Source of the DNA: an uncultured cyanobacterium
GTDB lineage: Bacteria > Cyanobacteriota > Cyanobacteriia > Phormidesmidales > Phormidesmidaceae
DNA length: 64,000 nucleotides
NCBI GenBank assembly: GCA_963793265.1
Contig: CAWBZI010000002.1
Coordinates: 448,001-512,000, forward strand
Direction of reading: 5' to 3'
Below the pieces are notes generated by a model. That model made no database searches and had not been told where the DNA came from. It saw only the letters and a list, made by a program, of their open reading frames with translations. Within the stretch, counting starts at the first letter, position 1, and each line of letters opens with the position of its first letter. A program made the translations under genes and the position numbers. Of the stretch, positions 42,806 to 59,200 are shown piece after piece.

Positions 42806-43984
42806 ATGGAACCGAAAAGCTACCAGGAATACGTTGTCGGTGTGATGACGATGGACGTGGAGGGCAAAAACTCTGAGCGCTTTCTTGACTATGTGACTAA
42901 AGCTATCGGCAATTTTGAGCTTGCGCTTAAAGAATCGCTCTGTGTTCGTGTAGAGATGCTTTCTTTTGAAGGGCCACATCTAATGCCAACCGCCGGAGCC
43001 TATGCGCCGCTCGATTTCTTGCACATCGGCATGACCGAAAAGATAGAGCGGGGCGTGCACTTTTTGCTTATTATCACCGAAGTTGACTTATCAGCAGCTT
43101 CGTTCAGCTCTACGCTAGCACTACCTAGCCAGCTTACGAATGTTGGCATTATCTCAACAAAACGCCTCAACCCTACGTTTTGGGGCGGCTCGGAAGATAA
43201 GCCGCTGACTGTACGTCGTTTAGAAACGCTGCTGCTCCGTACGTTTAGCTGCCTGCTAAATCTCTCTTATTCTAAACATCCGCAAAACATCATGTATGAC
43301 TTTGTAGCGGTAGAAGATCTTGCCCAGATGGTTCACTTTACAGACCGTCAGCGCCAGCAGATGCAGCGCGCGCTGCCTCGGGAGGCTCACGAAAGAACGA
43401 GTCGGCGGAATCGATGGCGGTTTGTTCTGGCTACTTTGTTTAGAGACCAAAAGAGTATTGCGATCGCTGTTATCCGAGCCAATCCTTTTCGCCTGCTCAC
43501 CCGCCTGCCGACGATGATTACCGCAGCGCTCTCCACTATTATCTTTTTATTTTTTACCCCTGATATGTGGGACGTTGCCAGCACAGTTGAACTCTATCAG
43601 CTCATTGTATTTTCTATCATTGCGATCGCTGCTGCCACCGCTGCGCTATACCGGGCCTTTGCCTTTGGCGACATTCTTAGCCGCCGCCGAATGCTAGCAG
43701 AATCAACCGTTGTGACAAGTGCGGCCACGATTGTAAGCCTGCTGCTCACGATGTCTCTACTGTTTACCATTTTCATGAGCTTCCTCTACTTAGGCACCGT
43801 TACTATTTTTCCGCGCAAGCTCATGGAAACCTGGCCCACGGTAGATCCTGCGGTACGCACTATAGATCATATAAAGCTGAGCATATTTGTAGCGGCTTTG
43901 GGAGTACTAGCCGGTTCTCTCGGCGGGCGAGCCGATAGTAATGGGCTCATACGCGGCGTTCTTTTTGTTGATGAAGAGACGTAG
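42806..43984 (+). CDS. Hypothetical protein: metzincin-like soluble domain + multi-TM C-terminus
   Basis: LLLRTFSCLLNLSYSKHPQNIMY segment; four hydrophobic helices at the C-terminus. Confidence 0.6.
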   Translation: MEPKSYQEYVVGVMTMDVEGKNSERFLDYVTKAIGNFELALKESLCVRVEMLSFEGPHLMPTAGAYAPLDFLHIGMTEKIERGVHFLLIITEVDLSAASFSSTLALPSQLTNVGIISTKRLNPTFWGGSEDKPLTVRRLETLLLRTFSCLLNLSYSKHPQNIMYDFVAVEDLAQMVHFTDRQRQQMQRALPREAHERTSRRNRWRFVLATLFRDQKSIAIAVIRANPFRLLTRLPTMITAALSTIIFLFFTPDMWDVASTVELYQLIVFSIIAIAAATAALYRAFAFGDILSRRRMLAESTVVTSAATIVSLLLTMSLLFTIFMSFLYLGTVTIFPRKLMETWPTVDPAVRTIDHIKLSIFVAALGVLAGSLGGRADSNGLIRGVLFVDEET

Positions 43985-44322
43985 TATTTTTTAACGAAAC
44001 CGTCGGGAAATTCGCCGCTCAGTTTCCGATATTACAATAAGGGTTTGCAGCAAACGAGATTCGACATTTCCGAAAGGCTGCTCGCAAACTCTCAGCGGAA
44101 CTTCGGAAACTCACCGAGGTGTGTGCATTTGAATAACATACCGTTTGTAGTTGCGCTATTTGTAGTTGTGCTCACAATGGTGCATAGCAGTGCTATGCAC
44201 TTGCATTTATCGGCGGTGTTGACGTAGAGGTTTGACACTACTGTGCCCTAGTACGTGGTCATCGCCAAGCGCTCAGCCTACCCTAACCTTCAAGCCTGCC
44301 TCAGCGTTCCATCACATTCCAC

Positions 44323-44351
44323 TTGACGGCAGCAGAAAATCAGATTATCGT
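44323..44351 (+). promoter_or_regulatory. Sigma70-type promoter of structured leader, copy 2
   Basis: TTGACG-17 nt-TATCGT. Confidence 0.6.
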
Positions 44352-44357
44352 CAGTTC

Positions 44358-44552
44358 TAAGCTGTGATGCCTATCACAGTCGTTCTCACCAGAACTCGAT
44401 TTCACTCAGCACTATCGATAGGTGCGGCAAACACCTACCGATAGCTAACCCCCGGACTACCAGTCAGTCTCGGCGGCTAGAGTCACTTTACTCTAGCCAC
44501 CCCGATTTGCACTACATTTTCGCGGGGTGGCTTAGTTTAGTGGAGTTCTGGT
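44358..44552 (+). ncRNA. Putative structured leader RNA/attenuator, copy 2
   Basis: Same hairpin order as 28080-28275 with compensatory changes. Confidence 0.6.
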
Positions 44553-44587
44553 TTCCTACCCAACCCAACATCTGGAAACCAGAAACA

Positions 44588-44833
44588 ATGCTCATTTCAT
44601 CTAGTCCAGACGCCTTCGCGTCCACCGTTCCCCCTGTCGGCAATTCCTCATTCCGCCCAGAAGACAGCCCTGAAGTCACTCACACCATACGCGGCACCCT
44701 TCGCGCCGTCCAAGCCACTATCCACACCCTATTCAGGCTCAACTACGCCGAGCCCAACGACTGGAGCAAACCCATCCCCACCGGACGAAATAACGAAGTC
44801 ATGGTCGTGTTGACCCGGCGCGTTAGAGGGTAG
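44588..44833 (+). CDS. Small hypothetical protein (frame open back to 44507)
   Basis: HTIRGTLRAVQATIHTLFRLNYAEPNDWSKPIPTG..EVMVVLTR. Confidence 0.65.
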   Translation: MLISSSPDAFASTVPPVGNSSFRPEDSPEVTHTIRGTLRAVQATIHTLFRLNYAEPNDWSKPIPTGRNNEVMVVLTRRVRG

Positions 44834-44921
44834 AAGCAAATAAAAAACCAAAACACCCCACAAACCCGCACAATGAAGAGTTCGTCCTCCGAACCCTTGG
44901 AAATTGTCCGGCTGTTTGTTT

Positions 44922-45779
44922 ATGCTACTCGTCAGAAAAAAGATTGATTACGTTTTAATTGTTGGAGTTTTGCTAATTTTCGCGGCTGATGTCGCCGTAT
45001 TTTGCAAGAGTTCTTCACTCCTCGGCCCGCTTGCATGGGCCATCTTCAGCCTCAACATCAAAGGCTGGATTTGCGCCTGGAACCACCACCATCAGCACTG
45101 TAGCTTTTTCCCCCGGCTAAGCTGGGCCAATCGCGCCATCGAGCTAATTATGGGGCTACATACCGGCATCGTCGGTGAAGCCTGGGTTTTGCACCATACG
45201 CTCGGCCATCACCTCAACTACTTAGATCAGGCCAAAGACGAATCTGCCTGGCAAAACAGCCATGGGCAGACGATGACAAGGCTGATATACACGCTAAAAG
45301 TAACGCTGCTCGCCTATCCCCTAGCGCTAAAAGTCGGCAAGCGCCATCCCAAAATCAGGCAGCGGCTATTGCAGAACATCATCATGACATCACTGGTGCT
45401 GAGCCTGCTGCTGTGGATAAACTGGGCAAACGCACTGATTATCTTTGTGTTGCCGATGCTGTTTCTGTTGTTCATGACGGTGTATGTCACCTACGACCAT
45501 CACGCCGGACTAGATAGTGAAAACCTCTACGAAGCAACCTACAACGTCACCGATCGCTGGTACAACTTCTTCACCTGCAATCTGGGCTACCACACCGCGC
45601 ACCATCTCCAATATGGCCGTCACTGGAGCGAGCTGCCCCAGCTACACGAAGAGATTAAAGACAAAATTCCGCCAGCGCTATATTTAGAGGCAGATTTTCC
45701 CTTTTCGCTGATGACCAAAGTAGAGAATGTGCTGGCGCAGCAGCGGCTAAGACTTCGCACCCGCCAAAGCCGTTCGTAG
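44922..45779 (+). CDS. Membrane fatty-acid desaturase family protein
   Basis: His boxes HHHQH, HHTLGHH, YHTAHH. Confidence 0.85.
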   Translation: MLLVRKKIDYVLIVGVLLIFAADVAVFCKSSSLLGPLAWAIFSLNIKGWICAWNHHHQHCSFFPRLSWANRAIELIMGLHTGIVGEAWVLHHTLGHHLNYLDQAKDESAWQNSHGQTMTRLIYTLKVTLLAYPLALKVGKRHPKIRQRLLQNIIMTSLVLSLLLWINWANALIIFVLPMLFLLFMTVYVTYDHHAGLDSENLYEATYNVTDRWYNFFTCNLGYHTAHHLQYGRHWSELPQLHEEIKDKIPPALYLEADFPFSLMTKVENVLAQQRLRLRTRQSRS

Positions 45780-45819
45780 ATTGCCATCGTGCTCATCTAG
45801 CGCGTTAATAGATGCACTT

Positions 45820-45858
45820 AATAAACCTATTTTGGGATAATCCGAAAATAGGTTTATT
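45820..45858. promoter_or_regulatory. Double operator (C-box-like) upstream of the controller gene
   Basis: aataaacctattttgggat-a-atccgaaaataggtttatt, a 19-bp inverted repeat with one mismatch. Confidence 0.7.
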
Positions 45859-45891
45859 TTATTTGAGCAAATACTGTGCTGAGAAAGCACG

Positions 45892-46155
45892 ATGAAGTCT
45901 ATTTTTAGTCTGGAACATAGTGCATTTCGTAAGTGCATGGTCATAGCCCGAAAGGAAGCTAATTTGACCCAGGCAGCGCTCGCTAGTGCGATTAAAAAGC
46001 CTCAGTCTTTCGTTGCGAAATATGAAAACGGCGAAAGAAGACTAGATGTGATCGAATTTATCGTTATTACTCACGCAATCGGCGTAGATCCTTGTGAAAT
46101 TGTACGAAAAGTCGAGCAGTCTCTTCGTACCACATCCGGCGAAGGAGAGATGTGA
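45892..46155 (+). CDS. XRE-family HTH, RM controller (C) protein-like
   Basis: ARKEANLTQAALA..KPQSFVAKYENGERRLDVIEF; overlaps the next gene (GTGA). Confidence 0.85.
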   Translation: MKSIFSLEHSAFRKCMVIARKEANLTQAALASAIKKPQSFVAKYENGERRLDVIEFIVITHAIGVDPCEIVRKVEQSLRTTSGEGEM

Positions 46156-47069
46156 ACACACCAGAAGTCATCAGGCTAGCAACTCAATACTTAAACGATT
46201 TATCTGGTCATACGTTCGACGTATTGAGTATTTCTAAACCCATTTCCCCCAATGCCGCCGTTAACCTCGCCAAAGTAATTTCTAAGCTGTCACCCCTGCT
46301 AGGAAACTTGATTGAATTTAACACGGTTGAATTTCTAAATCAGCAAGAAATATTTACGCCTTTCGGGGAATGGAGAAGGCAGGATCCTGGATTTCCAGAT
46401 GCCGTGTTCATCGGCAACGTGCAACCTACACCAGGGTTAGAAATAAAAGCGTGGTTCCCATTGGCTACTGAAATAACAGCCCGCTTCAAAGATAGTCAGA
46501 ATCACTTTCAATTCGATCAAACATACGTTGTACTGCTAGCTTGGTTGCCTGAAGCCGTAATCTATAAAAGGCCCAAAATCCTGGATGTGTGCGTCGTGTC
46601 TGGTCACTCAATAGCAAAAGCAAGAGATGATCACTACCACAATCCCCCTGATTATCTGGTGCTTGAACCAGAGGACACAACCCAGAGAACGCAAAACTTA
46701 CAGCAAACAAATACCAGCGGACATAAGTTTCAAGGAACAAATAAGGAATTTTTAGAGGCTAATAGAATAGTTGAATCTTGGGGCAGCGACGGAAAAGCTT
46801 ATAAGCCCACACGAGAGTACCAAGAACGCTTACGAGAACTTATCACTCGCTTCAGGTACAGATTAGACACTAATTTCGCAAAGATGGACAGAATCAAGCA
46901 TCCAGAAATTGAAACCTTCAAAAGGCGCGTCTCTAGAACAGAGTTTTCTGGCTTAGAAGTTAGAGAATGGAGAAAACTTTTAGCAAGCCGACAGGATGAT
47001 TTAATCAAATCCGCACTGAGAGAACATCTCAAAATCAGAGAAGAGAGCGTTGATGAGCTACTTGATTAA
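46152..47069 (+). CDS. Putative type II restriction endonuclease
   Basis: GNLIE...QDPGFPD...LEIKAW (PD-ExK); between a controller and a DNA MTase. Confidence 0.7.
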   Translation: MNTPEVIRLATQYLNDLSGHTFDVLSISKPISPNAAVNLAKVISKLSPLLGNLIEFNTVEFLNQQEIFTPFGEWRRQDPGFPDAVFIGNVQPTPGLEIKAWFPLATEITARFKDSQNHFQFDQTYVVLLAWLPEAVIYKRPKILDVCVVSGHSIAKARDDHYHNPPDYLVLEPEDTTQRTQNLQQTNTSGHKFQGTNKEFLEANRIVESWGSDGKAYKPTREYQERLRELITRFRYRLDTNFAKMDRIKHPEIETFKRRVSRTEFSGLEVREWRKLLASRQDDLIKSALREHLKIREESVDELLD

Positions 47070-48123
47070 ACCTCTTAACGCCATAATAGAAGTAGGTTTC
47101 GTCGATTTCACAGGCATAAGCTTTGCGGTTGAGCATATTAGCCGCCAAAGAAGCACTAAAAAGCCCACCAAATGGCTCCCAAACAACGTCTTGGTCACTG
47201 CTCGACGCCTCAATGATCAGTTTCATCAAATCAAGCGGCTTTTGGTTTAGATGAACTGCCTTACCCTCAACAGATTTGATTCGTTCGTCGCTGCGTAAAG
47301 CGGATCGATCCCAGACGTTGGTAAAGCCATGCGGACAATCAAACTTAGAGCGCATCTTTCCCCACTCTTCACCCGTCAATGGCCGCTCACCATCTACAGA
47401 AAAGTAAGGTTTGCTATCTGGTTTGCCATGCTCGTTCGCATAGGCAACTAATCTCTCGAACATTTCAATGGGCGGAAAATACCACAGATGCCCTTGAGTA
47501 AAATACTTCCTCGTTGCGGCATCTGCTACACCACAAGCCAAATTAGCTCTACATAAAGGCAAACCTGATCTTAACCATTCCTTTCGCAGCCATTCCTTAA
47601 GCATCAGGCCATCAAGCTTGACTTCTCTGACATATTGAACGCAAACCTCGGTAACGACTGGGAAGCGCCTTATTTTCTTTGTATTGACATTGCCCGCAAT
47701 ATGGCCTTTTCCCTTATTCCATATATTGCAGTTGACATAGCGCCAACCAAATTTCTCAAGTATTGGATGAACTGTAGCCCACCCGATCTCCGAATTCCAA
47801 AACCAAAGCGTTGTAGCAGGCAGTGCAAATCTCGACCAAGATTCTATGTGAGGCTCGTACCACTCAGGCAGGTCAAAATGATCTGACGTATCACCTTCAA
47901 ACCCCAGAATGCCATATCCACCGTCTGAGACTATTACCGTAGGCCGTTCCCAAAATTTATAGTGCTCAATGCTATCGCCCAAACTCAAGCTAACGTTGCT
48001 GTTATCCCAAGCAGAAAAAGCAAGCTCTTTATTAAGACAGACAGATTTACCACGTCCAACTGTACTTGTTGCTTTATTCTTTTTTGCCTTCGATAGGCTA
48101 TGGGAAGGCTTAAGCAAACTCAT
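47035..48123 (-). CDS. Amino (N4-C/N6-A) DNA methyltransferase, beta class
   Basis: GDS, IVSDGGYG (motif IV variant), IWNK, HLNQKPLDLM, VWEPFGG (motif I), CEID. Confidence 0.88.
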   Translation of the reverse strand: MSLLKPSHSLSKAKKNKATSTVGRGKSVCLNKELAFSAWDNSNVSLSLGDSIEHYKFWERPTVIVSDGGYGILGFEGDTSDHFDLPEWYEPHIESWSRFALPATTLWFWNSEIGWATVHPILEKFGWRYVNCNIWNKGKGHIAGNVNTKKIRRFPVVTEVCVQYVREVKLDGLMLKEWLRKEWLRSGLPLCRANLACGVADAATRKYFTQGHLWYFPPIEMFERLVAYANEHGKPDSKPYFSVDGERPLTGEEWGKMRSKFDCPHGFTNVWDRSALRSDERIKSVEGKAVHLNQKPLDLMKLIIEASSSDQDVVWEPFGGLFSASLAANMLNRKAYACEIDETYFYYGVKRFNQVAHQRSLL

Positions 48124-48170
48124 GTACTCTTCCTTTTATTTTTCAAGCATATATGTAAGTGCCTGCATCT

Positions 48171-48187
48171 TATCCTATTTTGGGATA
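48171..48187. promoter_or_regulatory. Single operator (C-box-like) upstream of the methyltransferase
   Basis: tatcctattttgggata; the 14-mer cctattttgggata is identical to 45826-45839. Confidence 0.7.
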
Positions 48188-48224
48188 TTTCATTTTTACG
48201 TAAGCTACATGGCGGCTATTGAGC

Positions 48225-49136
48225 TTATTTCGATTCACCAGCGCTTGCCAGAGCCAATCGCAGATTTCCATCGTGCTTAGCCAAAACGTCCTCAGCCGTA
48301 GCTTTGCTAAGACCGGCTAAGTGCATCACCAGCGCAACTTTTACCTGTAGGTCGCTTTTGTCTAGCAGTGAACCTGCGGCCTCACGATCTAGCTCGGTGA
48401 GATCGCAAAGGATGCGGATGGCGCGATCGCGTAACTTCGTATTCGTCACCGCCACATCCACCATCCGATTCCCATACACCTTCCCCAGCTTCACCATCAC
48501 CCCAGTAGACAAAATATTCAGCGCCAGCTTCGTCACCGTCCCCGCCTTCAGCCGCGTCGAACCCGCCAGCACCTCCGGCCCCACAATCAGCCGAATATCC
48601 ACATCCACATCCGCACCCACCTGATCGGCAGGCACACAGGCAATAAAAACCGTCCCGGCCCCACACTGCTTTGCCGCCTTCAGCGCCCCGTGCACATAGG
48701 GCGTCGTGCCGCCCGCCGTAATGCCAACGACCACATCGCGCCGGGTAATTTTATGATCAAAAATCGCCTCCGCACCGCTATCAGCCTCATCTTCTAAAGC
48801 CTCAGAGCTACGCAACAAAGCCGCCGCCCCACCTGCCAAAATGCCTTGCACCATCTCAGGCGGCGTACAAAAAGTAGGCGGGCACTCAGCCGCATCAAGC
48901 ACACCTAAGCGCCCGCTCGTGCCTGCCCCGATATAAAAGAGGCGTCCGCCTTCTCGCATAGAGGCGGCGGCTAGGTTAATAGCCTGGGCGAGATGGGTGC
49001 GGGCATGGGCGATCGCATCCACCGTCCGCTGATCTTCTTTATTAAACACATCCACCATTTCCAAGGTAGATAGCTCATCCAAATTTTGGCTATTAGGATT
49101 GTTTTGCTCCGTCAGCAGATGCCCGCGATTTTTCAT
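48225..49136 (-). CDS. murQ: N-acetylmuramic acid 6-phosphate etherase
   Basis: GAGTSGRLGVLDAAECPPTF, GPEVLAGSTRLKAGT, GKVYGNRMVDV. Confidence 0.97.
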   Translation of the reverse strand: MKNRGHLLTEQNNPNSQNLDELSTLEMVDVFNKEDQRTVDAIAHARTHLAQAINLAAASMREGGRLFYIGAGTSGRLGVLDAAECPPTFCTPPEMVQGILAGGAAALLRSSEALEDEADSGAEAIFDHKITRRDVVVGITAGGTTPYVHGALKAAKQCGAGTVFIACVPADQVGADVDVDIRLIVGPEVLAGSTRLKAGTVTKLALNILSTGVMVKLGKVYGNRMVDVAVTNTKLRDRAIRILCDLTELDREAAGSLLDKSDLQVKVALVMHLAGLSKATAEDVLAKHDGNLRLALASAGESK

Positions 49137-49142
49137 AAGTAA

Positions 49143-49520
49143 TTACAGTAGGTTTTCCAACTGGCGACGAATGCGATCCATCTCATCATCAGCCGCCGTA
49201 TCTTTAGCGTCTTTCTCACCGGGTTTCGCCTCGGGGCTCCACGTCGTTTCTTCTACCATGTTTTCAACCGGCGTCACGAGCTGCCCTTCAGGAATAAAAA
49301 CCGGCTCGTAGCCAGCATCCGCACAAATCTCCTCAATCTCTTCTCGATCAATCGACTCAATCGTGGGTGTCGGGCTATCTTGCGCCTCCAGCAAAATGCC
49401 AAAGCGAATCGCGTCATCCTCCGACTCGAACATAAGCACCTGCTGCTGATCGCCAATGCGAATCGAATGAATCCCCTCGTTATCGGTACCCACATTAAAC
49501 AAAACAACGTAGACAGACAT
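49143..49520 (-). CDS. DUF3110 family protein
   Basis: VYVVLFNVGTDNEGIHS, VLMFESEDDA, LLEAQD, RIRRQLENLL. Confidence 0.85.
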   Translation of the reverse strand: MSVYVVLFNVGTDNEGIHSIRIGDQQQVLMFESEDDAIRFGILLEAQDSPTPTIESIDREEIEEICADAGYEPVFIPEGQLVTPVENMVEETTWSPEAKPGEKDAKDTAADDEMDRIRRQLENLL

Positions 49521-49672
49521 CAGCACTAACTTAAATATGAAGTCATGACATTTTAGAGGATATAAGCGCCGATTACTCACGCCCGTTGAACGCATGTTCC
49601 GCTTGGGCGAGCTTCTGTAATAATGGGAAGGTTTTCACGAACTGTATCTGGCACTTACCCACCAGCGCTCCT

Positions 49673-51820
49673 ATGGCTACGTTTTTATTAGAAGTCGGTA
49701 CCGAAGAACTCCCGGCAAGCTTTGTCAGTGCGGCGCTGGCCCAGTGGCGCGAAAAGCTGCCCGCAGCGCTAGAAGAGAACTTCTTAAAGAACGATGGCAT
49801 CAAACTTTACGGTACGCCGCGCCGCCTAGCCGTGTTGATTAGTGGCCTACCTGAGCGCCAGCCCGACCGTGAGGAAGAGGCTAAGGGGCCACCGGCTAAG
49901 GCGGCTTTTAAAGATGGTAAGCCGACGAAAGCAGCAACCGGGTTTGCCGCGTCTAGAGGCGTAAGCATCGAAGATTTGGAAGTTCGCGATACGGGCAAAG
50001 GCGAGTTTATTTTTGTGCAGCAAAAGATTCCAGGGCGGGCGACTGCTGAGCTATTGCAGGAAATGGTACCGGATTGGATTTTGGGGCTAGAAGGTGATCG
50101 CTTTATGCGCTGGGGCGATGGCGAGCTAAAGTTTCCCCGGCCTATTCGCTGGCTGGTCACGCTGCTAGATAGTGAGCTGCTGCCGGTGACGATTGAGAAT
50201 GGATCTGAGGTATGCCAGAGCGATCGCACCTCCGAAGGCCACCGCGTTTTACATCCCGAACCCATCAGTCTCACTCAAGCTGACGACTACGTATCAGCAC
50301 TCGAAAAAGCCTACGTCAGCGTCGATCCTGCTAAGCGTCGTGAAACCATTTTGCAGCAGGTCGCCAGGGTCGCTAAATCTGTGAAAGGTCACGCGGTTGT
50401 TGATGAAGATCTGCTGTCAGAAGTGATAGATCTGGTGGAATGGCCCACGGCTATTGTCGGCAAGTTTGACGACGAGTTTTTAGCGCTGCCTGCTCAGGTC
50501 ACGATTACTGAACTGGAAAGCCACCAGCGCTACTTTTCAGTGCGACCTTCAGCCGACTCAGATCAGCTACTGCCCTACTTTATTACCGTCTCTAACGGCG
50601 ATCCAGCTAAGTCTGAGCTGATTACGCAAGGCAATGAGCGCGTAATTAGAGCCCGACTTTCTGACGGTAAATTCTTTTATGAGGCCGACCGCAAGCAGCC
50701 CCTTTCAGACTACGTGCCGCAGCTTGAAACGGTGACTTTTGAAGCAGAACTGGGCTCAGTTTTAGATAAGGTAAACCGCGTTATTCAGGTAGCCGATCTC
50801 CTCAGTGACCAGCTCGGGCTTAGCGCTGAGCAAAAGCAGCAGGCGGCTCGGGCGGCGAAGCTGTGTAAGGCTGACTTGGTGACGAAGATGGTGAATGAGT
50901 TTCCTGAGCTTCAGGGCTACATTGGGCAAAAGTACGCGATCGCCTCTCAAGAGCCCACCGCCGTAGCCGACGCCATCTACGAACACTATCTCCCCAAAGG
51001 CGCGGGCGACACCCTCCCCCAAACCCGCATCGGTCAGGTCGTCGGCATCGCAGACCGACTCGACACCCTAGTCGGCATCTTCAGCATCGGCAAGCTCCCC
51101 AAAGGCTCCTCCGATCCCTTCGCCCTACGCCGCGCGGCCAACGCCATCGTCAGCATTGTTTGGGTTGCGGGGCTGGATTTGAACTTGCAGCAGGCTATTA
51201 CGCAAATCGTCGAAAGCTTCGCTGCTAGCCGCACAGGTGTAAAAGTGAGTGAGCTAACCGCCCAGCTTACAGACTTCTTTCAGCAGCGAGTTCGTACCCT
51301 TTTGCAAGACGGGCAAAGCATTGATTACGACCTGGTGAATGCCGTTTTTAGTGAAGACGAAGACTATCAGGCACGGGCGCTGATGGATTTGTTGGATGTA
51401 CGCGATCGCGCCACCTTCCTTCAAACCATCCGCAACGACGGACGCCTCGCCACCGTCTACGAAACCGTCAACCGCGCCTCCAAACTCGCCACCAAAGGCG
51501 ATCTCTCCACCGAACCACTCGATCCCAAAGGTCTTGTCGATCCCAACCTTTTCGAGCAGCCCTCCGAGCAAGCCTTTTACGACAGCCTGACTCAGCTTGT
51601 GCCCCAAACCCAATCAGCCCAGGCCGAAAGAGACTACAGCAAACTCATCGCCGGACTCGAACAAATCGTCCCCACCGTCACCGCCTTCTTTGACGGTGAC
51701 ACCAGCGTCATGGTCATGGCCGAAAATCCTGACATTCGCCAAAACCGCTTAAACCTGATTAGCCTGCTCCGCAACCATGCCCGCGTCCTCGCTGACTTCA
51801 GCGAAATCGTCAAAAGCTAG
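49673..51820 (+). CDS. glyS: Glycine-tRNA ligase beta subunit
   Basis: [55 protein letters not shown]. Confidence 0.97.
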
Positions 51821-51950
51821 CCCCGAATAACTGCTTACATACCTTACTTATGCAGATCTATAAATAGGCACAAAAACTAGGCACAAAGTCTTGTACAATC
51901 GCGGCTTAGTATACGTGCGAGTGTACTTCTCTCATCCGGTTAAAGCCTCT

Positions 51951-53300
51951 ATGAAAACAGCACACGTCATTGGCCTCGGTCGTTCTGGAATTGCCGCCGC
52001 TCGCGTTTTGGCCCGTCAGGGATGGCAGGTCGTCCTCAGCGACAGAGGCACCGCCGAACGCCACAAACGTGATGCTGAAGCGCTTACCCATGAAGGCATT
52101 ACCGTAAAGCTCAACCATTCTTTTGAGCCTGAGCCCGGCCTAGACTTACTGGTCGTGAGTCCTGGTGTCCCTTGGGATGCGCCCGCTCTGAAGAAAGCCC
52201 GTGAGATAGGAATTGAGACGATTGGCGAAATGGAATTGGCCTGGCGATCGCTACAAAACTGCCCCTGGCTCGGCATCACTGGCACCAACGGCAAAACCAC
52301 CACCACCGCCCTTGTCGCCGCCATCTTCAAAGCTGCCGGGCTCAACGCTCCCGCCTGTGGCAACATCGGCTACGCGGCCTGCGAGCTTGCCCTCACTGAG
52401 CCCCCCGACTGGGTAATCGCAGAACTCAGCAGCTACCAGATAGAAGCCGCCCCCACCCTCGCGCCCACCATTGGCCTGTGGACAACCTTCACCCCCGACC
52501 ACCTCAGCCGCCACAAAACGGTCGAGAACTACTACAAAATAAAAGCTTCTTTGCTGGCCAACTCTAAGGAAAAAGTCATCAACGGCGACGATCCTTGCCT
52601 GCTCAGCAAAGCCTCAGAGCGCGATCCCGACAGCCATTGGACAAGCGTAAAAGGCAAAGAAGAGATCGCGCCTTTGCATACCGACACCTATATCGAAGAC
52701 GGTTGGGTTATTCACAAAGGTGAGAAAATTGTTGAGACAAAAGCGCTGCGGATGGTGGGTGCTCACAACCAGCAAAATATGCTGTTGGCCGTTGCGGCGG
52801 CAAAGTTAGCGGGGATAGAAACGGAGGCGATCGCCCAAGGCATTTCCACCTTCCCTGGCGTCTCCCACCGCCTAGAACACATCTGCACCTGGCGCGGCGT
52901 AGACTTTATCAACGACAGCAAAGCCACCAACTACGACGCGGCTGAAGTTGGCCTACGTTCGGTCACTGGCCCTGCCATCCTCATCGCAGGCGGAGCCCCC
53001 AAAGACGGCGACGACACCGCCTGGATTAAACAAATCCAGGCAAAAGCTGCCACCGTTCTACTCGTAGGAGATGCCGCAGAACCTTTCGCCAAACGTCTCA
53101 AAGAATGCGCCTATCCTCACTACGAGATTGTTGAAACCATCGACCGCGCCGTCGCTAGAAGCGCAGAGATTAGCAAACAAAAGCCGATTAAAACTGTTCT
53201 CCTTTCCCCCGCCTGTGCCAGCTTCGATCAGTACGCCAACTTTGAAGTACGCGGCGATGATTTCCGACAGGTGTGTACAAAGTATCTAGGTGAGCTGTAA
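51951..53300 (+). CDS. murD: UDP-MurNAc-L-Ala--D-Glu ligase
   Basis: [46 protein letters not shown]. Confidence 0.97.
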
Positions 53301-53307
53301 AAGAAAA

Positions 53308-54426
53308 CTATGTCCAGTAGAGTATTTCTGCATTAGGAAACGTTTGCGCTATCTTCTCTTCAAAAAACTCTCGTAGTGACTGAGTAGTGGGTTTGTCATA
53401 GACGTACTTGATACCACCAAACTTGTTTCGCTTCGTAGATCGCGATTCCATGCCCATATCCAATTTGCTTTTTGGATACCACTCGTTCAAAACCTTTTTG
53501 GATTTAGAGGTATAGCGATGGCTAATCAGTTCAAAGGTAAGATCGCACTCGAAGTCCAAAGCGGCTGCGAGCTGATCGAACAGAGCATCGTAGTGGCTTT
53601 GCCAGTCTGTAAAGGCCATAATTGGCGCAATCACTAGGCCGATAGTATAGCCACCGCCCCCTCTTTCTTTGGGTAGGGCGAGCTGTCTGAGCGCGGCGAT
53701 GCGATCGCTCACCTTTGCCGTCCCCCCTTCAAACCCCTGCGCCACCGGATCAGCATTCACACTCGCCCGACACCGCGTATGCCCGTTATGCTCAATCTCT
53801 AGTAAAGGCTGCACGTTATCAAACTTAGATACCCACCGCAATCGCTTATCAGGCTGCTGACCAAAGTAACGAATGCACTCACCCAGGCTCCCGGTTAAGT
53901 GCTCCAAGCTCAATGGATCGGTATAGCAGCTCACCTCGAAGCTAGTCGTTTCTGTGTCTGAACTATAGTTAGCCGTATTCTCTAAGATCTCCAGCAAGTT
54001 CGCAAATACTCGAATTACTGGTGGCCCAGACAAGCTGCTTGCCAAATAACAATACTGACAGTGAGCCGGACACCCTTCTGCCAAATGAAACTGCCAGTCC
54101 GCAGACGGCGGAATTGGCTGAAGCTTAAACGCACTCGGCGGCGCAGTCACCACCGCCATTGTCTGCTTAGCCTTCGCATAAGTCTCTCTTTCTGTCTCAC
54201 CTCTCAGGCCCACCACCCTATTGTTCTTTAGCTCAACAATCGGCAGTCCCATATCGCTAATCCGTTGATATATTTGCTGGCCCCAGGGTTCTTCTAGTGC
54301 CGCTGGGGTGAACATGACTTGCTTAGGCATCCACAAGCGGGTAGCCGATTGAGGTGGAGATTGAGGCGTTTTGACTGAGTTTTTGACTGGGGTAGGGGAG
54401 AGGGCTGGCATGGGCGATTGCGTCAA
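53308..54426 (-). CDS. Spore photoproduct lyase family radical SAM protein
   Basis: GCPAHCQYCYL, FEVSCYTDP, KRNKFGGIKYVY, ILYWT. Confidence 0.85.
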   Translation of the reverse strand: MTQSPMPALSPTPVKNSVKTPQSPPQSATRLWMPKQVMFTPAALEEPWGQQIYQRISDMGLPIVELKNNRVVGLRGETERETYAKAKQTMAVVTAPPSAFKLQPIPPSADWQFHLAEGCPAHCQYCYLASSLSGPPVIRVFANLLEILENTANYSSDTETTSFEVSCYTDPLSLEHLTGSLGECIRYFGQQPDKRLRWVSKFDNVQPLLEIEHNGHTRCRASVNADPVAQGFEGGTAKVSDRIAALRQLALPKERGGGGYTIGLVIAPIMAFTDWQSHYDALFDQLAAALDFECDLTFELISHRYTSKSKKVLNEWYPKSKLDMGMESRSTKRNKFGGIKYVYDKPTTQSLREFFEEKIAQTFPNAEILYWT

Positions 54427-54829
54427 CAGTATGCGTCAACAGTACAGGTAATTTTTATCAGCGTTATATACATATAGTTTGACAAAAAAACGCAGAGACA
54501 GTACCGCTCTCAGGTACGGTTTTACGACCTCAAAAGCTGTTCCTTTCGATACCTTCTGCCTGTAGCAAAGACTGTTAGCAAAGGTTGCGGGCAAAGACCG
54601 CCTACAAAGGAAGCGCCGTAAAAAATATAACCGTGAAACACTTTGACGCCGTAAATTTTTTGACGGCAAAGCAAAAGCTACCGTGAAGAAATCAAAAATA
54701 CTTACATAAAGCATTCTTGTTGAATTAAACTACTGAAGCCTTCAAAAGGCCATATTAAAGTCGCTTTTGCGCAATTTCGAGGGCTACGCCCTACATCGTC
54801 ATCTGCATCCAGCAGGCTTATTTTGCGGC

Positions 54830-56272
54830 ATGGACTTCAAGCACCATATATTTATCAGCTATAGACACATCGATGACAAACCTTATCCAGCGGGCTCTAT
54901 CGGTTGGGTATCAAAGTTTCATCACATATTAGAAACTGCTTTAGCTGTCCGCAGAGGAGAAGAGCAGCGCTTGTGGCGAGATGTCACGAGGATGAAAGGT
55001 AACGAAAACCTAAGTGAAACGCTATTCGACACGCTCTCAGAGAGTGCTTTGCTAGTCTCTATTGTGTCACCGTCTTACTTAAAGTCTCAGTGGTGTTCGC
55101 GAGAACTCCGTCATTTTTGCCAGGAGGCCGAAAAAACAGGCGGGCTCGGCGTCGGTGAGCATGGATCTAGACTGTTTAAAGTTGATAAAGAGCACATACC
55201 GCTAGATCAGTGCCCTCCAGAGTTTCAAACATCACTTGGCTATCGGTTCTATGAGTTTGACGAGGCACAGTATCCCAAGGCGCTCGATCAGCCTTCTGAA
55301 AAAGTGGTAGGCGAGAAGTATATGGCTGTTATAGAAAGGCTTGCCAGAGAGATATGCGAGACGTTAGATACTTTAGAGACATCTTCTGAAGAAAGCCCTC
55401 AGCCGTCTAAAAAGCTCATCTATCTCTCAGAAACTACCGATGATCTGAGAGAGATCAGAGAGAGTATTCGTCAGAGCTTAGAAATGGACGGGCATCGGGT
55501 ATTGCCGTCGCAAATGCTGCCGCCAGAGGCAGACTTCTCTGAGAAAGTATTAGAGAATATGTCGCAGTGCGAGATGTCTATTCATTTGGTTAGTCCGAGT
55601 GCCCATCGTACTCAAGAGTTCCGTCAAAAGCTGATGGCGGCTAAAACTCAAGAGCAGATCAACATCTCTAGTCAGTGTGTTGAGAATAAACAGAGCTTGA
55701 CTCGCATATTTTGGATGCCACCGACCGAAACAGCAGATAGCTCAGACCCGTTTATCCGATCCATTCAAAGCGAGCCTAACTTTTTGAGTATGCCGGTTGA
55801 GTCATTAAAAACAACCATTCAAGATCAGCTACAGCAGCAAAGGGCGATCGCACTTGCGCCTGTAGGTAACGGGTCTAGCAAAGTATATCTTGACTGCGAT
55901 GAGGATGATTTTTTATATGCAGACGATATTGAGCCTATATACGACTGGCTCAGAAAGCGTTTTGATGAGGTTGTTTTGCCAGAACACGGTATGCACAATC
56001 TGAGCAGCTCAGAGGCCAGATTAAAGCAGTGCGAGGCTGTCTTGATTTACTACGGGCGCGCGCGCGATTTTTGGTTTGAAAGGCGGATATGCGCGCTGCA
56101 AAAAGCGCTTAGAAACGATCGCCCGCAGCCATTGCGAGCCAAGGCTATCTATGTGTCAAGACCAAACACGCCGAAAAAACAAAACCTCAACTTAAACATT
56201 CCTGTGATTAACGGAATAAGAGAATTTAGCGCCGAGATTCTCAATGTTTTTTCAGAGCAACTGGAGGCATAA
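54830..56272 (+). CDS. TIR-domain protein with two further TIR-like Rossmann modules
   Basis: IFISYRH..WV..LWRD..SPSYLKSQWCSRE; IYLSETTDDL..SIHLV; VYLDCD..CEAVLIYYG..W. Confidence 0.85.
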   Translation: MDFKHHIFISYRHIDDKPYPAGSIGWVSKFHHILETALAVRRGEEQRLWRDVTRMKGNENLSETLFDTLSESALLVSIVSPSYLKSQWCSRELRHFCQEAEKTGGLGVGEHGSRLFKVDKEHIPLDQCPPEFQTSLGYRFYEFDEAQYPKALDQPSEKVVGEKYMAVIERLAREICETLDTLETSSEESPQPSKKLIYLSETTDDLREIRESIRQSLEMDGHRVLPSQMLPPEADFSEKVLENMSQCEMSIHLVSPSAHRTQEFRQKLMAAKTQEQINISSQCVENKQSLTRIFWMPPTETADSSDPFIRSIQSEPNFLSMPVESLKTTIQDQLQQQRAIALAPVGNGSSKVYLDCDEDDFLYADDIEPIYDWLRKRFDEVVLPEHGMHNLSSSEARLKQCEAVLIYYGRARDFWFERRICALQKALRNDRPQPLRAKAIYVSRPNTPKKQNLNLNIPVINGIREFSAEILNVFSEQLEA

Positions 56273-56275
56273 ACA

Positions 56276-59200
56276 GTGCAGCTATTGATTAAGCCTTCTA
56301 CTCGAACCAATCCTTTCCCCGGTCTGCGCCCCTTTTTATTAGGCGAAGAAGATCTGTTCTTTGGGCGCGAAGGACAGTCAGATCAGCTATTAGAAAGACT
56401 CTACAGCGAGCGTTTTTTAGCAATCGTAGGAGCCTCTGGTAGCGGTAAGTCTTCTTTGGTACGCGCAGGTCTTTTGCCATCGCTCTATAGCGGTCTTTTT
56501 GTTTCGGCAAACGAAGCATGGCGCGGTGTGGCCAGCTCTAAGTGGAAAATTGCCATATTTAGACCCGGCAATGACCCAATTGAAAATTTGGCAGAGGCGC
56601 TCAATCGGCCTGAGGTGTTTGGGCGATCGCCTGACGAAAAAGATGCCAGCATTTATGCAGCGCTCAATAAAATCACGCTGAAGCGAGGGCACTTAGGCTT
56701 AGTAGAAGTCGCGCAGCAGGCTCGGATGGTAGAAAAAGAGAGTCTGTTAGTCGTGGTCGATCAGTTTGAAGAGCTGTTTCGGTTTAAGCAGAGCGCGCAG
56801 TCTCTAGAAGCTGAAGACAAAGCCGCTGCTTTTGTGAAACTTTTGCTGTCGGCTGTTAAACAAAGGGATGTGCCCATTTTTGTGGTGCTGACGATGAGAT
56901 CGGATTTTATTGGAGACTGCGCTCAGTTTCGCGATTTGCCAGAGGCGCTCAACGATAGCCAGTATTTGGTTCCGCGTCTGACGCGATCGCAGCTAAAAGA
57001 TGCCATTCAAGGGCCAGTAGCGGTTGCCAACGGCGAGATTACGCCTCAGCTCGTCAACCGATTGCTGAACGATGCCGGAGAAGATCCCGATCAGCTTCCT
57101 ATTTTGCAGCACGCGCTGATGCGAACGTGGGAATACGCATCAACTTCACAAGGGCCGCTCGATATGGCTCACTATGAGGCCATTGGCGGTGCTCGGGAGG
57201 CGCTTTCTCGCCATGCCGATCAAATTTATCGCAAGCTACCTGATGAGCGATCGCGCCAACTCGCCCAAAACATATTCAAAGCCATCACCGACCGAGGCCC
57301 TGACAACCGCGAAATTCGCCGCCCGCTAAAGCTCAAGCAAATCTGTGAAGTCACTGGCGCTAGTCCCAAAGAGGCCATTACTGTTATCAATGCTTTTAGC
57401 GGCCCCCAATGCTCTTTTTTAACGCCGCCTGCGGCCACCCCAAAAAAGGGAGATAGCGTTATTGATATCTCTCATGAGAGCCTCATGCGCAACTGGCAGC
57501 AGCTCAAAGCGTGGATAGATGAAGAAGCCTCATCGGCTAATATATACCGGAGACTCGCCCAAACAGCGGCGCTTCAGGCAAACCAAAAAGCGGAATACTA
57601 TCGCGGCCCTGAGCTATCTATTGCCCTAGAATGGCTAGAAAAGCAGCAGCCCAGCCAGCAATGGGCACAGCGATATGCGCCAAACTTTGAGCAGTCTAAA
57701 GCATTCTTAAAAGAGAGTGAGAAAGCTGAGCTGAAATTTAAGCAGGCTGAAAAACGAAAGCTTCAGGCGAGCGTAGTTTTTGGCTTATCGTTTCTTATTC
57801 TAAGCGTTTTTCTAGGCTGGTCGGTAAGAGAACAAAAGCGAATCAACCGCCAGGTAGAAAACGCCGAGATAGCGGCCACTGCCGAAAAGCTCATCGTGCA
57901 GTCAAACCAGATTAGAACAACTCAGCCAAACCTGCGTCCAACGGCTGCATTACTGGCCGTAGAGGCGTTTAATCAGCTTCAATCCGTCAAAGAATCGACC
58001 GTTGAAGCGAAGGGAAACCTACAGCGCAGCATCCTTCAGCTACCCCAGGCCATCTATCGTTCACAAGACACCAACACTCACGCCTTTAGCCCCAACAATC
58101 GATACATCGCCACAGGGGGCTCTAATGGAAAGGTTAGCCTCATCGATACCACTAGCCAAAAGCTAGTCTCTACGGCTAGCCATGACTACTCCGTTTCAAA
58201 GGTTATCTTTAGCAGCGACAGTCAGTATCTTGCAACGCTTGGCAGCGACCATCAAGCTAAGCTAATCGACGTTAAAAAGAGAGAAGAAATCGCAGAAGTG
58301 GAGCACTCAGATCCCATTTTTGACATTAGCTTTAGCAATAATGGTCAGTATCTATCAACGCGCAGTAAAGACGGCATAGCAAAGGTAATAGATACCCAAA
58401 CAGGCGATTTGATTACGACTATCTATCACGATGCCCCTACCGGATCGAACTACTTCAGCAGCGACAGCAACACCCTCATCACAACTAGCGGCGATGGCGC
58501 TGTGAGAATGGTCAATTTGAAAACCAAAGTCGTTACTAATATTGCTGAGTACAGTGACGACCAGATAAACGTTGTATTTAGTAGCGATAGTAAATACGTT
58601 GCACTCTACCCGACTAAAGAGAGTAAAGAGATCGAGATCATTTCAACTGAGACAGGCGAGAATATTAAAACGCTCAGCTATGAGGAAGAGATAGAAGGAC
58701 TAATATCTAAGGTCATTTTCAGTCCTAGCAGTGCCTATTTAGCAGTCGGTACCAGTGAAGGCGCTTTAGAAATATTCGATCTAACAACCAAAACAGTGGT
58801 ATCGACAGCCGAGTATCAAGGGCGTATTACAGAGCTTGCCTTCGATGTAGAGGGAAACCGCTTGGCCGTATCAATGAGCGGTAGCGAAGACTCAATAGAC
58901 ATTATTGACTTAGCCACTAAAAAGACCATTCATGAACTAGAGACTTATAATGATGCGACAACCCTAAGCTTTAGTGCTGACGGTAAATATTTGATTGCAC
59001 AGAGCTACTACGAAATAGAGATATTTGATTTAGAAAAAGATGCGTTAGTCAATGACATCTATCACTCTGGTGGCATCGGGAACGTCGCAATTAGCCCGGA
59101 CGAGCAGTACGTAGCCACCTATGACAACAGCGGCGTAGTCAGAATCATCAAGCTCAGCGTAGGTGAGATTTCGTCCTTGTTTCAGCATAGCGGAATTGAT

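What the first reader, a model, noticed from the sequence alone, without database searches (positions are those of the whole stretch)
48380..52880. Strand composition flips from G-rich to C-rich at HIP1 (GCGATCGC) sites, irrespective of gene direction
Seen in sequence, by hand counts over 40 nt each side (G/C upstream -> G/C downstream on the + strand): site 48423, 14/9 -> 5/15; site 49009, 19/6 -> 3/15 (both in minus-strand murQ); site 51402, 14/7 -> 7/18 (glyS); site 52244, 14/4 -> 9/15; site 52827, 18/7 -> 6/19 (murD). The same look recurs at 3775, 30231, 33997 and 50936. Because HIP1 is palindromic, each strand is G-rich 5' of the site and C-rich 3' of it, in the middle of conserved genes. 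Established: HIP1 is a methylated, over-represented cyanobacterial octamer of unresolved function. Inference: HIP1 sites seed a strand-asymmetric mutation or repair process (nicking, then resection and resynthesis) that leaves a local skew footprint. Caveat: I picked the sites by eye, so selection bias is possible, and I cannot check the literature.
Basis: partly seen in the sequence, partly recalled or inferred. Interest (0 to 1): 0.75.

Follow-up and report, generated by a model that had tools for sequence, protein, structure and literature searches.

The report
One-way mutation footprint at HIP1
In this cyanobacterium and most relatives tested, each DNA strand is G-rich just before and C-rich just after the abundant palindrome GCGATCGC (HIP1), a footprint that comes and goes with the site between species and likely marks a one-way nick-and-resynthesis step starting at this long-unexplained word.

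Summary
Confirmed, and not selection by eye. 5,945 of 6,888 HIP1 sites in the genome show the G-to-C flip (random positions: 3,108 of 6,888). Fourfold-site skew is about +0.6/-0.6 at the site edge on both gene strands. It decays over about 60 bp, with a tail near 1 kb. Control palindromes are flat. The skew follows the site: 0.35 where only this genome has HIP1, 0.00-0.05 in orthologous DNA lacking it. With codon frame matched, G exceeds C in 72 of 74 HIP1-rich cyanobacterial genomes. In a relative pair, C>T, A>G and C>G/C>A rates rise 1.2-1.5x on the strand running into HIP1, reverse rates fall slightly, and total divergence is flat. That argues against purely protective repair. There is no hairpin complementarity. 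One genome with the alternative palindrome GGGATCCC shows a reversed gradient, and three others show none. Best reading (inferred): HIP1 is nicked or cut and one strand is removed 5'->3', exposing the other. Geometry-driven mismatch repair is the main rival. No enzyme was identified. I found no paper describing it, but this scan reported the same footprint six times before, twice on this genome.

The parts
48423..48430 (.). HIP1 site in murQ; third-position G/C 11/8 in the 100 bp before, 0/24 in the 100 bp after
49009..49016 (.). HIP1 site in murQ; third-position G/C 17/5 before, 3/14 after
50220..50227 (.).
50936..50943 (.). HIP1 site in glyS; third-position G/C 21/4 before, 3/23 after
51402..51409 (.). 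HIP1 site in glyS; third-position G/C 11/7 before, 0/26 after
52244..52251 (.). HIP1 site in murD; third-position G/C 11/7 before, 2/23 after
52827..52834 (.). HIP1 site in murD; third-position G/C 17/3 before, 1/25 after
48323..52934 (.). Flanking gradients, about 100-150 bp each side of each site, plus a weak tail: G/T-rich on the strand running into the site, C/A-rich on the strand running out; a sawtooth between neighbouring sites
48225..49136 (-). murQ, N-acetylmuramic acid 6-phosphate etherase (host gene; carries the footprint in its silent sites)
   Evidence: TIGR00274 421.5 bits, cut-off 302; ORF
49673..51820 (+). glyS, glycine-tRNA ligase beta subunit (host gene)
   Evidence: TIGR00211 831 bits, cut-off 300
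51951..53300 (+). murD (host gene)
   Evidence: TIGR01087 409.8 bits, cut-off 212

Best explanation
HIP1 sites carry a strand-specific substitution bias that makes the strand running into the site G/T-rich and the strand running out C/A-rich, likely because HIP1 is nicked or cut and the outgoing strand is removed 5'->3' and resynthesised, leaving the incoming strand as an exposed template. Shown: the gradient, its dependence on the exact octamer, its gain and loss with the site, and raised C>T, A>G and C>G/C>A rates on the incoming strand. Inferred: the nick or cut, the direction of strand removal, gaps of mostly under about 100 nt with rarer ones near 1 kb, damage to or miscopying of the exposed strand, and a role for the methylated C. 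The biological setting (repair, recombination between chromosome copies, or uptake of DNA) is open.
For: Fourfold skew is +0.60/-0.62 (plus genes) and +0.58/-0.59 (minus genes) at 3-10 bp. The two-exponential fit gives 62 and 63 bp plus 0.9-1.5 kb tails. Both transitions are polarised at two-fold sites. Second codon positions are barely affected, and 309 wholly non-coding sites still give 0.129. The skew follows the site: G000-only sites give 0.352 and 0.363 in G000 against 0.049 and -0.003 in G009 and G007 (58 and 38 sites with >=2 mismatches); relative-only sites give 0.234 and 0.286 there against 0.075 and 0.054 in G000; shared sites are strongest (0.44-0.47). Rates in G007/G009 (274 kb aligned), near (3-40 bp) against the same-direction rate far away: favoured transitions 1.23-1.31x, C>G+C>A 1.5x, rising toward the site. 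Total fourfold divergence is 0.52 near and 0.48-0.51 far. Polarity and spectrum (C>N, A>G on the strand 5' of the site) match resected flanks of human meiotic breaks (PMC7615360, passages). C>T is boosted after T at two-fold sites (1.0-1.1 logit against 0.5-0.8). GTGATCGC, the product expected from deamination of 5mC at position 2, is the only one-mismatch variant above expectation (O/E 2.08) and keeps a symmetric skew of 0.28/0.26. The polarity is reversed round GGGATCCC in G214, so direction is set by the machinery and not by palindromy.
Against: No nuclease, nick or gap was observed. MutH and NucS were not found, and the CGATCG methylase was not identified among the C5 methylase hits. Reverse rates also fall near the site (0.76-0.95x same-direction; T>C 0.71-0.86 of a symmetric baseline), which damage alone does not predict. 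A>G is at least as polarised as C>T, whereas spontaneous deamination of single strands should favour C>T (own knowledge). The enzymes invoked for C>G and A>G at human breaks (REV1, Pol eta) are eukaryotic. Fourfold rates assume a reversible, stationary model at about 0.5 substitutions per site. The polarised trio G243/G083/G235 was underpowered: near A>G 85 against T>C 60, but C>T and G>A rates equal. Non-coding skew is about a third of fourfold skew, unexplained. Two very HIP1-dense genomes show almost none at -22 (G029 1.02, G046 1.03).
Confidence: 0.5

Rival explanations
1. HIP1-directed mismatch repair with strand choice fixed by geometry (a variant of Elhai's G-meC model). A nick opposite the methylated GC and one-way excision always keep the incoming strand, whichever strand is new. 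G:T, T:G and G:G mismatches are then resolved in its favour, so its errors are fixed and those of the outgoing strand are erased.
For: Favoured rates go up and reverse rates down with total divergence about flat. The order of shifts, G over C 1.0 > G over A 0.67 > T over C 0.45 > T over A 0.1, fits better recognition of G-containing than C-containing mismatches (own knowledge of MutS). Two MutS-domain genes are present. Elhai's model has the G-meC strand kept and the opposite strand nicked (PMC4390886 section 3.4).
Against: The fall in reverse rates is only 1-2 SE per class when compared like with like. Half-sites [ACT]CGATCGC, which the model says should work from one strand, give only -0.036 (se 0.027) left and +0.065 (0.026) right, against 0.38-0.40 for HIP1. 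The A>G shift is weakest or near-weakest before C, while E. coli replication errors peak at 5'NAC3' (10.1101/346874, abstract). The main decay of about 60 bp is far shorter than the 1,000 nt Elhai assumes. No MutH or NucS found.
Confidence: 0.25
2. The footprint comes from natural transformation. Donor DNA is cut or engaged at methylated HIP1, and single strands with their 3' end at HIP1 enter and replace the resident strand, carrying single-strand damage next to the site.
For: Methylated HIP1 raised transformation of PCC 7002 up to 130-fold, also when non-homologous (10.1101/2024.09.10.611283, parts 2-3 read). HIP1 abundance tracks type IV pilus genes and RadC (PMC13756078). The polarity fits 3'-ended strands.
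Against: Ends of identical tracts between G243 and G083 are not enriched at HIP1 (8.8% within 30 bp against 9.0% of all SNPs; 68 tracts; a weak test). A decay of 60 bp is short for transforming fragments. Repair against the donor strand would predict the opposite polarity (inference). Deleting addAB did not remove the HIP1 benefit.
Confidence: 0.13
3. Selection for polar G-rich/C-rich flanks (hairpin or cruciform, DNA shape, or a translocase-guiding signal) rather than a substitution bias.
For: HIP1 itself is strongly conserved (301 of 368 aligned sites shared; PMC5861425 passages). Elhai reports G/C extensions at +/-1-2 in several genomes. Non-coding skew is weaker.
Against: No mirror complementarity at offsets 4-40 (0.2553 against 0.2565, sd 0.0009). 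No flank motif beyond base composition except neighbouring HIP1 words and a mild TC loss. All eight fourfold codon families and both two-fold classes shift. The decay is smooth with no helical period by eye. The gradient is reversed in G214.
Confidence: 0.06
4. Ordinary protective, methyl-directed repair that works only 3' of HIP1 on the new strand, so errors there are removed while the other side keeps the background rate.
For: Gives the right polarity (inference), and reverse rates are somewhat lower near the site.
Against: Favoured rates rise by 23-37% against the 300-600 bp bin and total divergence does not drop. One small within-gene comparison (>600 bp, fourfold) gave only 1.09 (se 0.15).
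Confidence: 0.05
5. Artefact of codon frame, amino-acid context, gene direction, or HIP1 arising at pre-existing switch points.
For: A single-offset survey at -21 was in fact confounded by codon frame.
Against: The effect is strongest at fourfold sites, equal on both gene strands and absent at control palindromes. At the frame-matched offset it is absent in 6 of 6 HIP1-poor genomes (0.85-1.06). It is absent from orthologous DNA lacking the site.
Confidence: 0.01

Closest known systems
HIP1 of cyanobacteria (Elhai 2015 PMC4390886; Xu et al. 2018 PMC5861425; Rodriguez-Cruz et al. 2026 PMC13756078)
   Same: The same octamer, about 1.2 per kb, conserved between relatives; the G/C extension at +/-1-2 reported by Elhai is the innermost part of this gradient.
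   Different: None of the three describes a flanking strand gradient: term searches gave 'skew' 0, 0 and 2 (unrelated) and 'asymmetr' 0 in each.
Elhai's hypothetical G-meC-directed mismatch repair
   Same: A nick directed by methylated HIP1, with the strand bearing the G-meC kept; my inferred geometry fits it.
   Different: It predicts reach of about 1,000 nt, lower error rates and active 7-mer half-sites. Here the main range is about 60 bp, total divergence is flat and half-sites are nearly silent. It makes no prediction of polarity.
Strand-asymmetric mutagenesis in resected flanks of human meiotic breaks (Hinch et al. 2023, PMC7615360)
   Same: Mirror-image C>N and A>N excess on the strand 5' of the site; same polarity.
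   Different: Eukaryotic, SPO11/PRDM9-dependent, 1-2 kb with off-centre peaks. Here it is bacterial, anchored on an 8-bp word about 6,900 times per genome, peaks at the site edge, and A>C and A>T are not raised.
Dam/MutH methyl-directed mismatch repair of E. coli
   Same: A methylated palindrome containing GATC, with MutS present.
   Different: MutH not found; plain GATC sites carry no such skew here (-0.02); E. coli repair is bidirectional (recalled).
Replication-linked GC skew (origin/terminus switch) and Chi-directed 3' overhang formation
   Same: G/T against C/A asymmetry switching sign at a point (HIP1 looks like a mini-terminus, G214's GGGATCCC like a mini-origin); Chi also yields a 3' single strand ending at the site (recalled).
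   Different: The scale is 100 bp rather than Mb, it repeats at every site, and the word is palindromic where Chi is not.

Membership tests
HIP1 element | GCGATCGC strongly over-represented, about 1 per kb | tested here: met
   6,888 sites in 5.68 Mb; O/E 15.9 against a third-order model; 65 against 1.59 in the window
HIP1 element | Sites conserved between relatives beyond silent-site background | tested here: met
   301 of 368 aligned sites shared at about 0.5 fourfold substitutions per site; no control-motif comparison was run
HIP1 element | 5mC at CGATCG by a DmtC-type methylase | tested here: inconclusive
   Eight C5-methylase matches; the one tested matched 20 of 80 genomes, so orthology is not shown; excess of GTGATCGC (O/E 2.08) is indirect support
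Dam/MutH mismatch repair | MutS present | tested here: met
   Two PF00488 matches; MutL not searched
Dam/MutH mismatch repair | MutH nicking enzyme | tested here: not met
   PF02976 not found in the 99%-complete genome
Dam/MutH mismatch repair | Lowers substitution rate near the signal | tested here: not met
   Total fourfold divergence 0.52 near against 0.48-0.51 far
NucS/EndoMS repair | NucS gene | tested here: not met
   PF01939 not found
Elhai G-meC-directed repair | 7-mer half-sites direct repair from one strand | tested here: inconclusive
   Left -0.036 (0.027), right +0.065 (0.026), 311 sites: predicted side, about one sixth of the HIP1 size
Elhai G-meC-directed repair | A G-meC-specific nicking enzyme | not testable with these tools
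   No candidate is known
Resection/single-strand mutagenesis footprint | C>N and A>N raised on the strand 5' of the site, mirror image beyond it | tested here: met
   C>T, A>G, C>G and C>A raised; A>C and A>T not
Resection/single-strand mutagenesis footprint | Reverse changes unchanged | tested here: inconclusive
   0.76-0.95x, 1-2 SE each, against the 300-600 bp bin
Resection/single-strand mutagenesis footprint | A physical break or gap at the site | not testable with these tools
   Needs nick or single-strand mapping
Chi-like recombination hotspot | Non-palindromic polar word | tested here: not met
   HIP1 is palindromic and acts equally on both sides (0.378/0.404)
Chi-like recombination hotspot | Exchange tracts end at the site | tested here: inconclusive
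   No enrichment among 68 tracts, but many are probably just conserved genes

The most novel reading that the evidence does not exclude
Cyanobacteria have an undescribed site-specific nicking and one-way strand-replacement pathway that uses methylated HIP1, and in one lineage GGGATCCC with the opposite direction, as its entry point thousands of times per genome. It both maintains the word and rewrites silent sites in a sawtooth, and it is the same step that makes HIP1 boost natural transformation.
Probability: 0.35. Interest if true: 0.92.

Novelty: new variant of a known kind. Interest (0 to 1): 0.78.

Why it matters
HIP1's function has been open for over 30 years. The footprint shows that something acts on DNA at these sites with a direction and a range (about 60 bp, tail near 1 kb). 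It gives a quantitative readout that can be scored in any genome or mutation-accumulation line. That makes the repair, recombination and transformation models directly testable. Lineages with strong, weak and reversed footprints allow a comparative hunt for the enzyme. It also means that silent-site composition and codon-usage estimates in cyanobacteria depend on distance to the nearest HIP1: fourfold G runs from about 0.45 to 0.11 across a site.

Tried and rejected
1. Survey at offset -21 over 251 genomes: discarded because codon frame gives G>C even in HIP1-poor genomes. Redone at the frame-matched offset -22 on 80 genomes that I picked from those 251 (mostly one per genus; 74 HIP1-rich, 6 poor).
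2. Hairpin or quasi-palindrome model: rejected.
3. Hidden flank motif: none. Known RNA family in the window: none at gathering score.
4. NucS, suggested by the mismatch order: not found. MutH: not found.
5. Identifying the CGATCG methylase: one candidate tested, inconclusive.
6. Polarised spectrum in trio G243/G083/G235: weak skew in that genus and too few changes. A second trio (genus of G039) was looked up but not fetched.
7. GGGATCCC test on genus g28: wrong genomes, the word is rare there.
8. A degenerate pattern over 45 HIP1-poor genomes gave ratios near 1 except G214 (0.83). It is too diluted to test CAGGCCTG.
9. Recombination-tract ends at HIP1: no enrichment, weak test.
10. The control-palindrome half crashed; the frame argument rests on the HIP1-poor genomes instead.
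11. Sequencing reads were not used (too little sequence per call for a spectrum).
12. Supplements of the papers were not read and could mention flank composition.
Full report
OBSERVATION. The stretch holds murQ (minus strand), glyS and murD (plus strand) and seven HIP1 sites. All hand counts are exact. In the window 56 of 65 sites flip from G-rich to C-rich. In the whole genome (5.68 Mb, 7 contigs) 5,945 of 6,888 do, against 3,108 of 6,888 random positions. All seven contigs agree (oriented skew 0.12-0.15). Among isolated sites HIP1 has D = 8.38 (n = 4,057, z = 66). The 98 control palindromes with at least 30 sites average -0.25 (sd 0.89, max 2.10); rarer ones were left out of that summary. 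GATC outside CGATCG, GCGC, GGCC, GCWGC, GCSGC, CCGG and similar words are at 0 to -0.02.

ANATOMY. I used my own gene calls (4,730 genes, 85% coding). Fourfold-site GC skew is +0.60/-0.62 at 3-10 bp in plus-strand genes and +0.58/-0.59 in minus-strand genes, about 0.45 at 20 bp and 0.2-0.28 at 75-100 bp. Second positions barely move. Non-coding DNA shows 0.12-0.16 at 10-20 bp, and 309 wholly non-coding sites give 0.129. A two-exponential fit gives 62 and 63 bp on the two sides plus tails of 0.9-1.5 kb, and a power law fits nearly as well. Between neighbours the skew forms a sawtooth, for example -0.54 to +0.53 across gaps of 150-300 bp. On the strand running into the site, T gains over C and G over A at two-fold sites, and all eight fourfold families shift. 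The logit shifts are G over C 1.0, G over A 0.67, G over T 0.55, T over C 0.45, A over C 0.33 and T over A 0.1. T over C is strongest after T at two-fold sites, and G over A is weakest or near-weakest before C.

WHAT THE SIGNAL IS. The full octamer is needed. Of the 12 one-mismatch variants only GTGATCGC is above expectation (O/E 2.08) and clearly skewed (0.28 left, 0.26 right). That is what a decayed site formed by deamination of 5mC at position 2 would look like (inference). GAGATCGC and GCAATCGC are weakly skewed. Half-sites that keep CGATCG give -0.036 (0.027) and +0.065 (0.026), and CGATCG with neither flank gives 0.007. The 5mC position is established in Synechocystis 6803 (PMC6105098, passages), not in this strain.

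DIRECTION OF CAUSE. In DNA aligned to two congeners, isolated sites present only in G000 have third-position skew 0.352 and 0.363 in G000 but 0.049 and -0.003 in the orthologous DNA of G009 and G007 (58 and 38 sites with at least two mismatches; all such sites: 0.055 and 0.026, n = 64 and 46). Sites present only in the relative give 0.234 and 0.286 there and 0.075 and 0.054 in G000. Shared sites are strongest (0.44-0.47). So the footprint builds where the site is and fades where it is not. Bases at -k and +k are not complementary beyond chance for k = 4-40 (0.2553 against 0.2565), which removes hairpin models.

BREADTH. My first survey (offset -21, 251 genomes) was confounded by codon frame and is discarded. 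At the frame-matched offset -22, on 80 genomes that I chose from those 251, G/C exceeds 1 in 72 of 74 HIP1-rich genomes. z exceeds 3 in 57, none is below -2, the median is 1.18 and the range 0.94-1.81; 27 of 30 families have a genome with z > 3. G000 is second strongest (1.58). Six HIP1-poor genomes give 0.85-1.06. Kin are not independent, so these are descriptions and not a test. Against a universal rule, two of the densest genomes are almost flat (G029 1.02, G046 1.03). For the alternative word GGGATCCC, three rich genomes are flat at -22 (G027 2,452/2,377; G054 2,306/2,303; G189 2,822/2,818), as is the sparse G261 (371/387). G214 is reversed (1,822/2,559). In 100 kb of G214, 120 of 139 sites flip the other way, third-position skew runs from -0.46 at 3-10 bp to -0.10 at 200-400 bp on both gene strands with T/A reversed too, and 143 control palindromes are flat.

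RATES. In G007/G009 (274 kb aligned; 301 of 368 HIP1 shared) total fourfold divergence is 0.52 (0.03) at 3-40 bp, 0.55 at 40-120, 0.51 at 150-400 and 0.48 beyond 400. Compared like with like, favoured transitions rise toward the site: 1.27-1.31x at two-fold and 1.23-1.30x at fourfold sites, and C>G+C>A 1.5x. Reverse changes are 0.81-0.95x, each within 1-2 SE of 1. Restricting to 119 of 241 genes with both near and far positions gives 1.32-1.37 and 0.76-0.95 against the 300-600 bp bin; against the small >600 bp bin the fourfold rise was only 1.09 (0.15). Two-fold estimates need stationarity, and fourfold estimates also need reversibility. A>C, A>T, T>A and T>G do not clearly change. The polarised trio in a weak-footprint genus gave A>G 85 against T>C 60 near the site but equal C>T and G>A rates, which is underpowered. 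The rise in favoured rates is therefore the firm part and the fall in reverse rates is suggestive.

MECHANISM. A nick on the strand leaving the site followed by 5'->3' removal, or a cut followed by resection, leaves the incoming strand single-stranded and used as template. At human meiotic breaks that geometry gives C>N and A>N on the strand 5' of the break (PMC7615360, passages), the same polarity and largely the same classes as here. I commit to this at 0.5. The nick, the enzyme and the setting are inferred. Mismatch repair that always keeps the incoming strand (0.25) explains the lowered reverse rates and the mismatch order. It fits Elhai's proposal that the G-meC strand is kept (PMC4390886, section 3.4 first part). 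But half-sites are nearly silent, the range is short, the context differs from E. coli replication errors (10.1101/346874, abstract), and neither MutH nor NucS was found although MutS was. Transformation (0.13) has experimental links: methylated HIP1 raises transformation up to 130-fold (10.1101/2024.09.10.611283, parts 2-3 of 4), and pilus genes and RadC track HIP1 (PMC13756078, parts 1-3 of 6). But tract ends were not enriched at HIP1. Selection on flanks (0.06), purely protective repair (0.05) and artefact (0.01) fit poorly.

KNOWN OR NEW. Searches of the held library: HIP1+cyanobacteria+GCGATCGC (18 papers), HIP1+cyanobacteria+skew (6), strand asymmetry+palindrome+mutation+methylated+cyanobacteria (0), HIP1+slr0214+mismatch repair (4), uptake sequences+flanking+GC skew+natural transformation+single-stranded (0) and HIP1+GGGATCCC+methyltransferase (4). 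None listed describes the gradient. Term searches inside the three main HIP1 papers found no relevant 'skew' or 'asymmetr'; Elhai reports only 1-2 base G/C extensions (section 2.4). Most subscription papers and all supplements were not seen. This scan's notes hold six earlier reports of the same footprint, two on this genome; they are not independent evidence. A word search for the reversed GGGATCCC case found none. One note led me to the meiotic-break paper, which moved single-strand exposure ahead of mismatch repair in my ranking.

VERDICT. Real, large, site-dependent and spread across the class. It works like a resection or gap footprint and is not shown to be a member of any named repair system. 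New variant of a known kind; interest 0.78.

Noticed in passing
G214 (L187-L191); whole-genome counts: The alternative palindrome GGGATCCC carries a gradient of opposite sign (C/A-rich before, G/T-rich after; 120 of 139 sites), longer-ranged than in G000, and NGGATCCC variants share it. Three other GGGATCCC-rich genomes of the same family are flat at -22.
   Followed up: partly
G029, G046, G153, G231, G031: HIP1-bearing genomes, two of them among the densest, with almost no skew at -22 (0.94-1.04); footprint strength does not follow site density.
   Followed up: no
genus g40 (G243, G083, G235): The footprint is weak (fourfold 0.1) but flatter and longer-ranged than in G000.
   Followed up: partly
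G000 genome-wide: GGWCC is almost absent (O/E 0.03), which suggests an active restriction system for that word (inference).
   Followed up: no
G000 genome-wide, offsets 1-3 from HIP1: Bases at +/-1 to 3 are less complementary than shuffled pairs (0.193 against 0.267 at +/-1). This may be a codon-frame effect or avoidance of longer palindromes.
   Followed up: no
window 43630-48422: A 4.8-kb stretch without HIP1, holding an ORF with a weak adenine-methylase match at 47035-48123; possibly acquired DNA.
   Followed up: no
window 54767-61792: A 501-aa ORF with a weak TIR-like FxsC N-terminal match, followed directly by a 1,838-aa ORF with a weak beta-propeller repeat match (both below cut-off); may be a signalling or defence pair.
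   Followed up: no
window 53308-54426 (minus): Spore-photoproduct-lyase-like protein (333.8 bits, cut-off 400) convergent with murD.
   Followed up: no
G000 genome-wide: The extra loss of C after T on the incoming strand (TC 0.89 of expectation; two-fold shift 1.0-1.1) is unexplained; UV lesions or a deaminase are candidates.
   Followed up: partly
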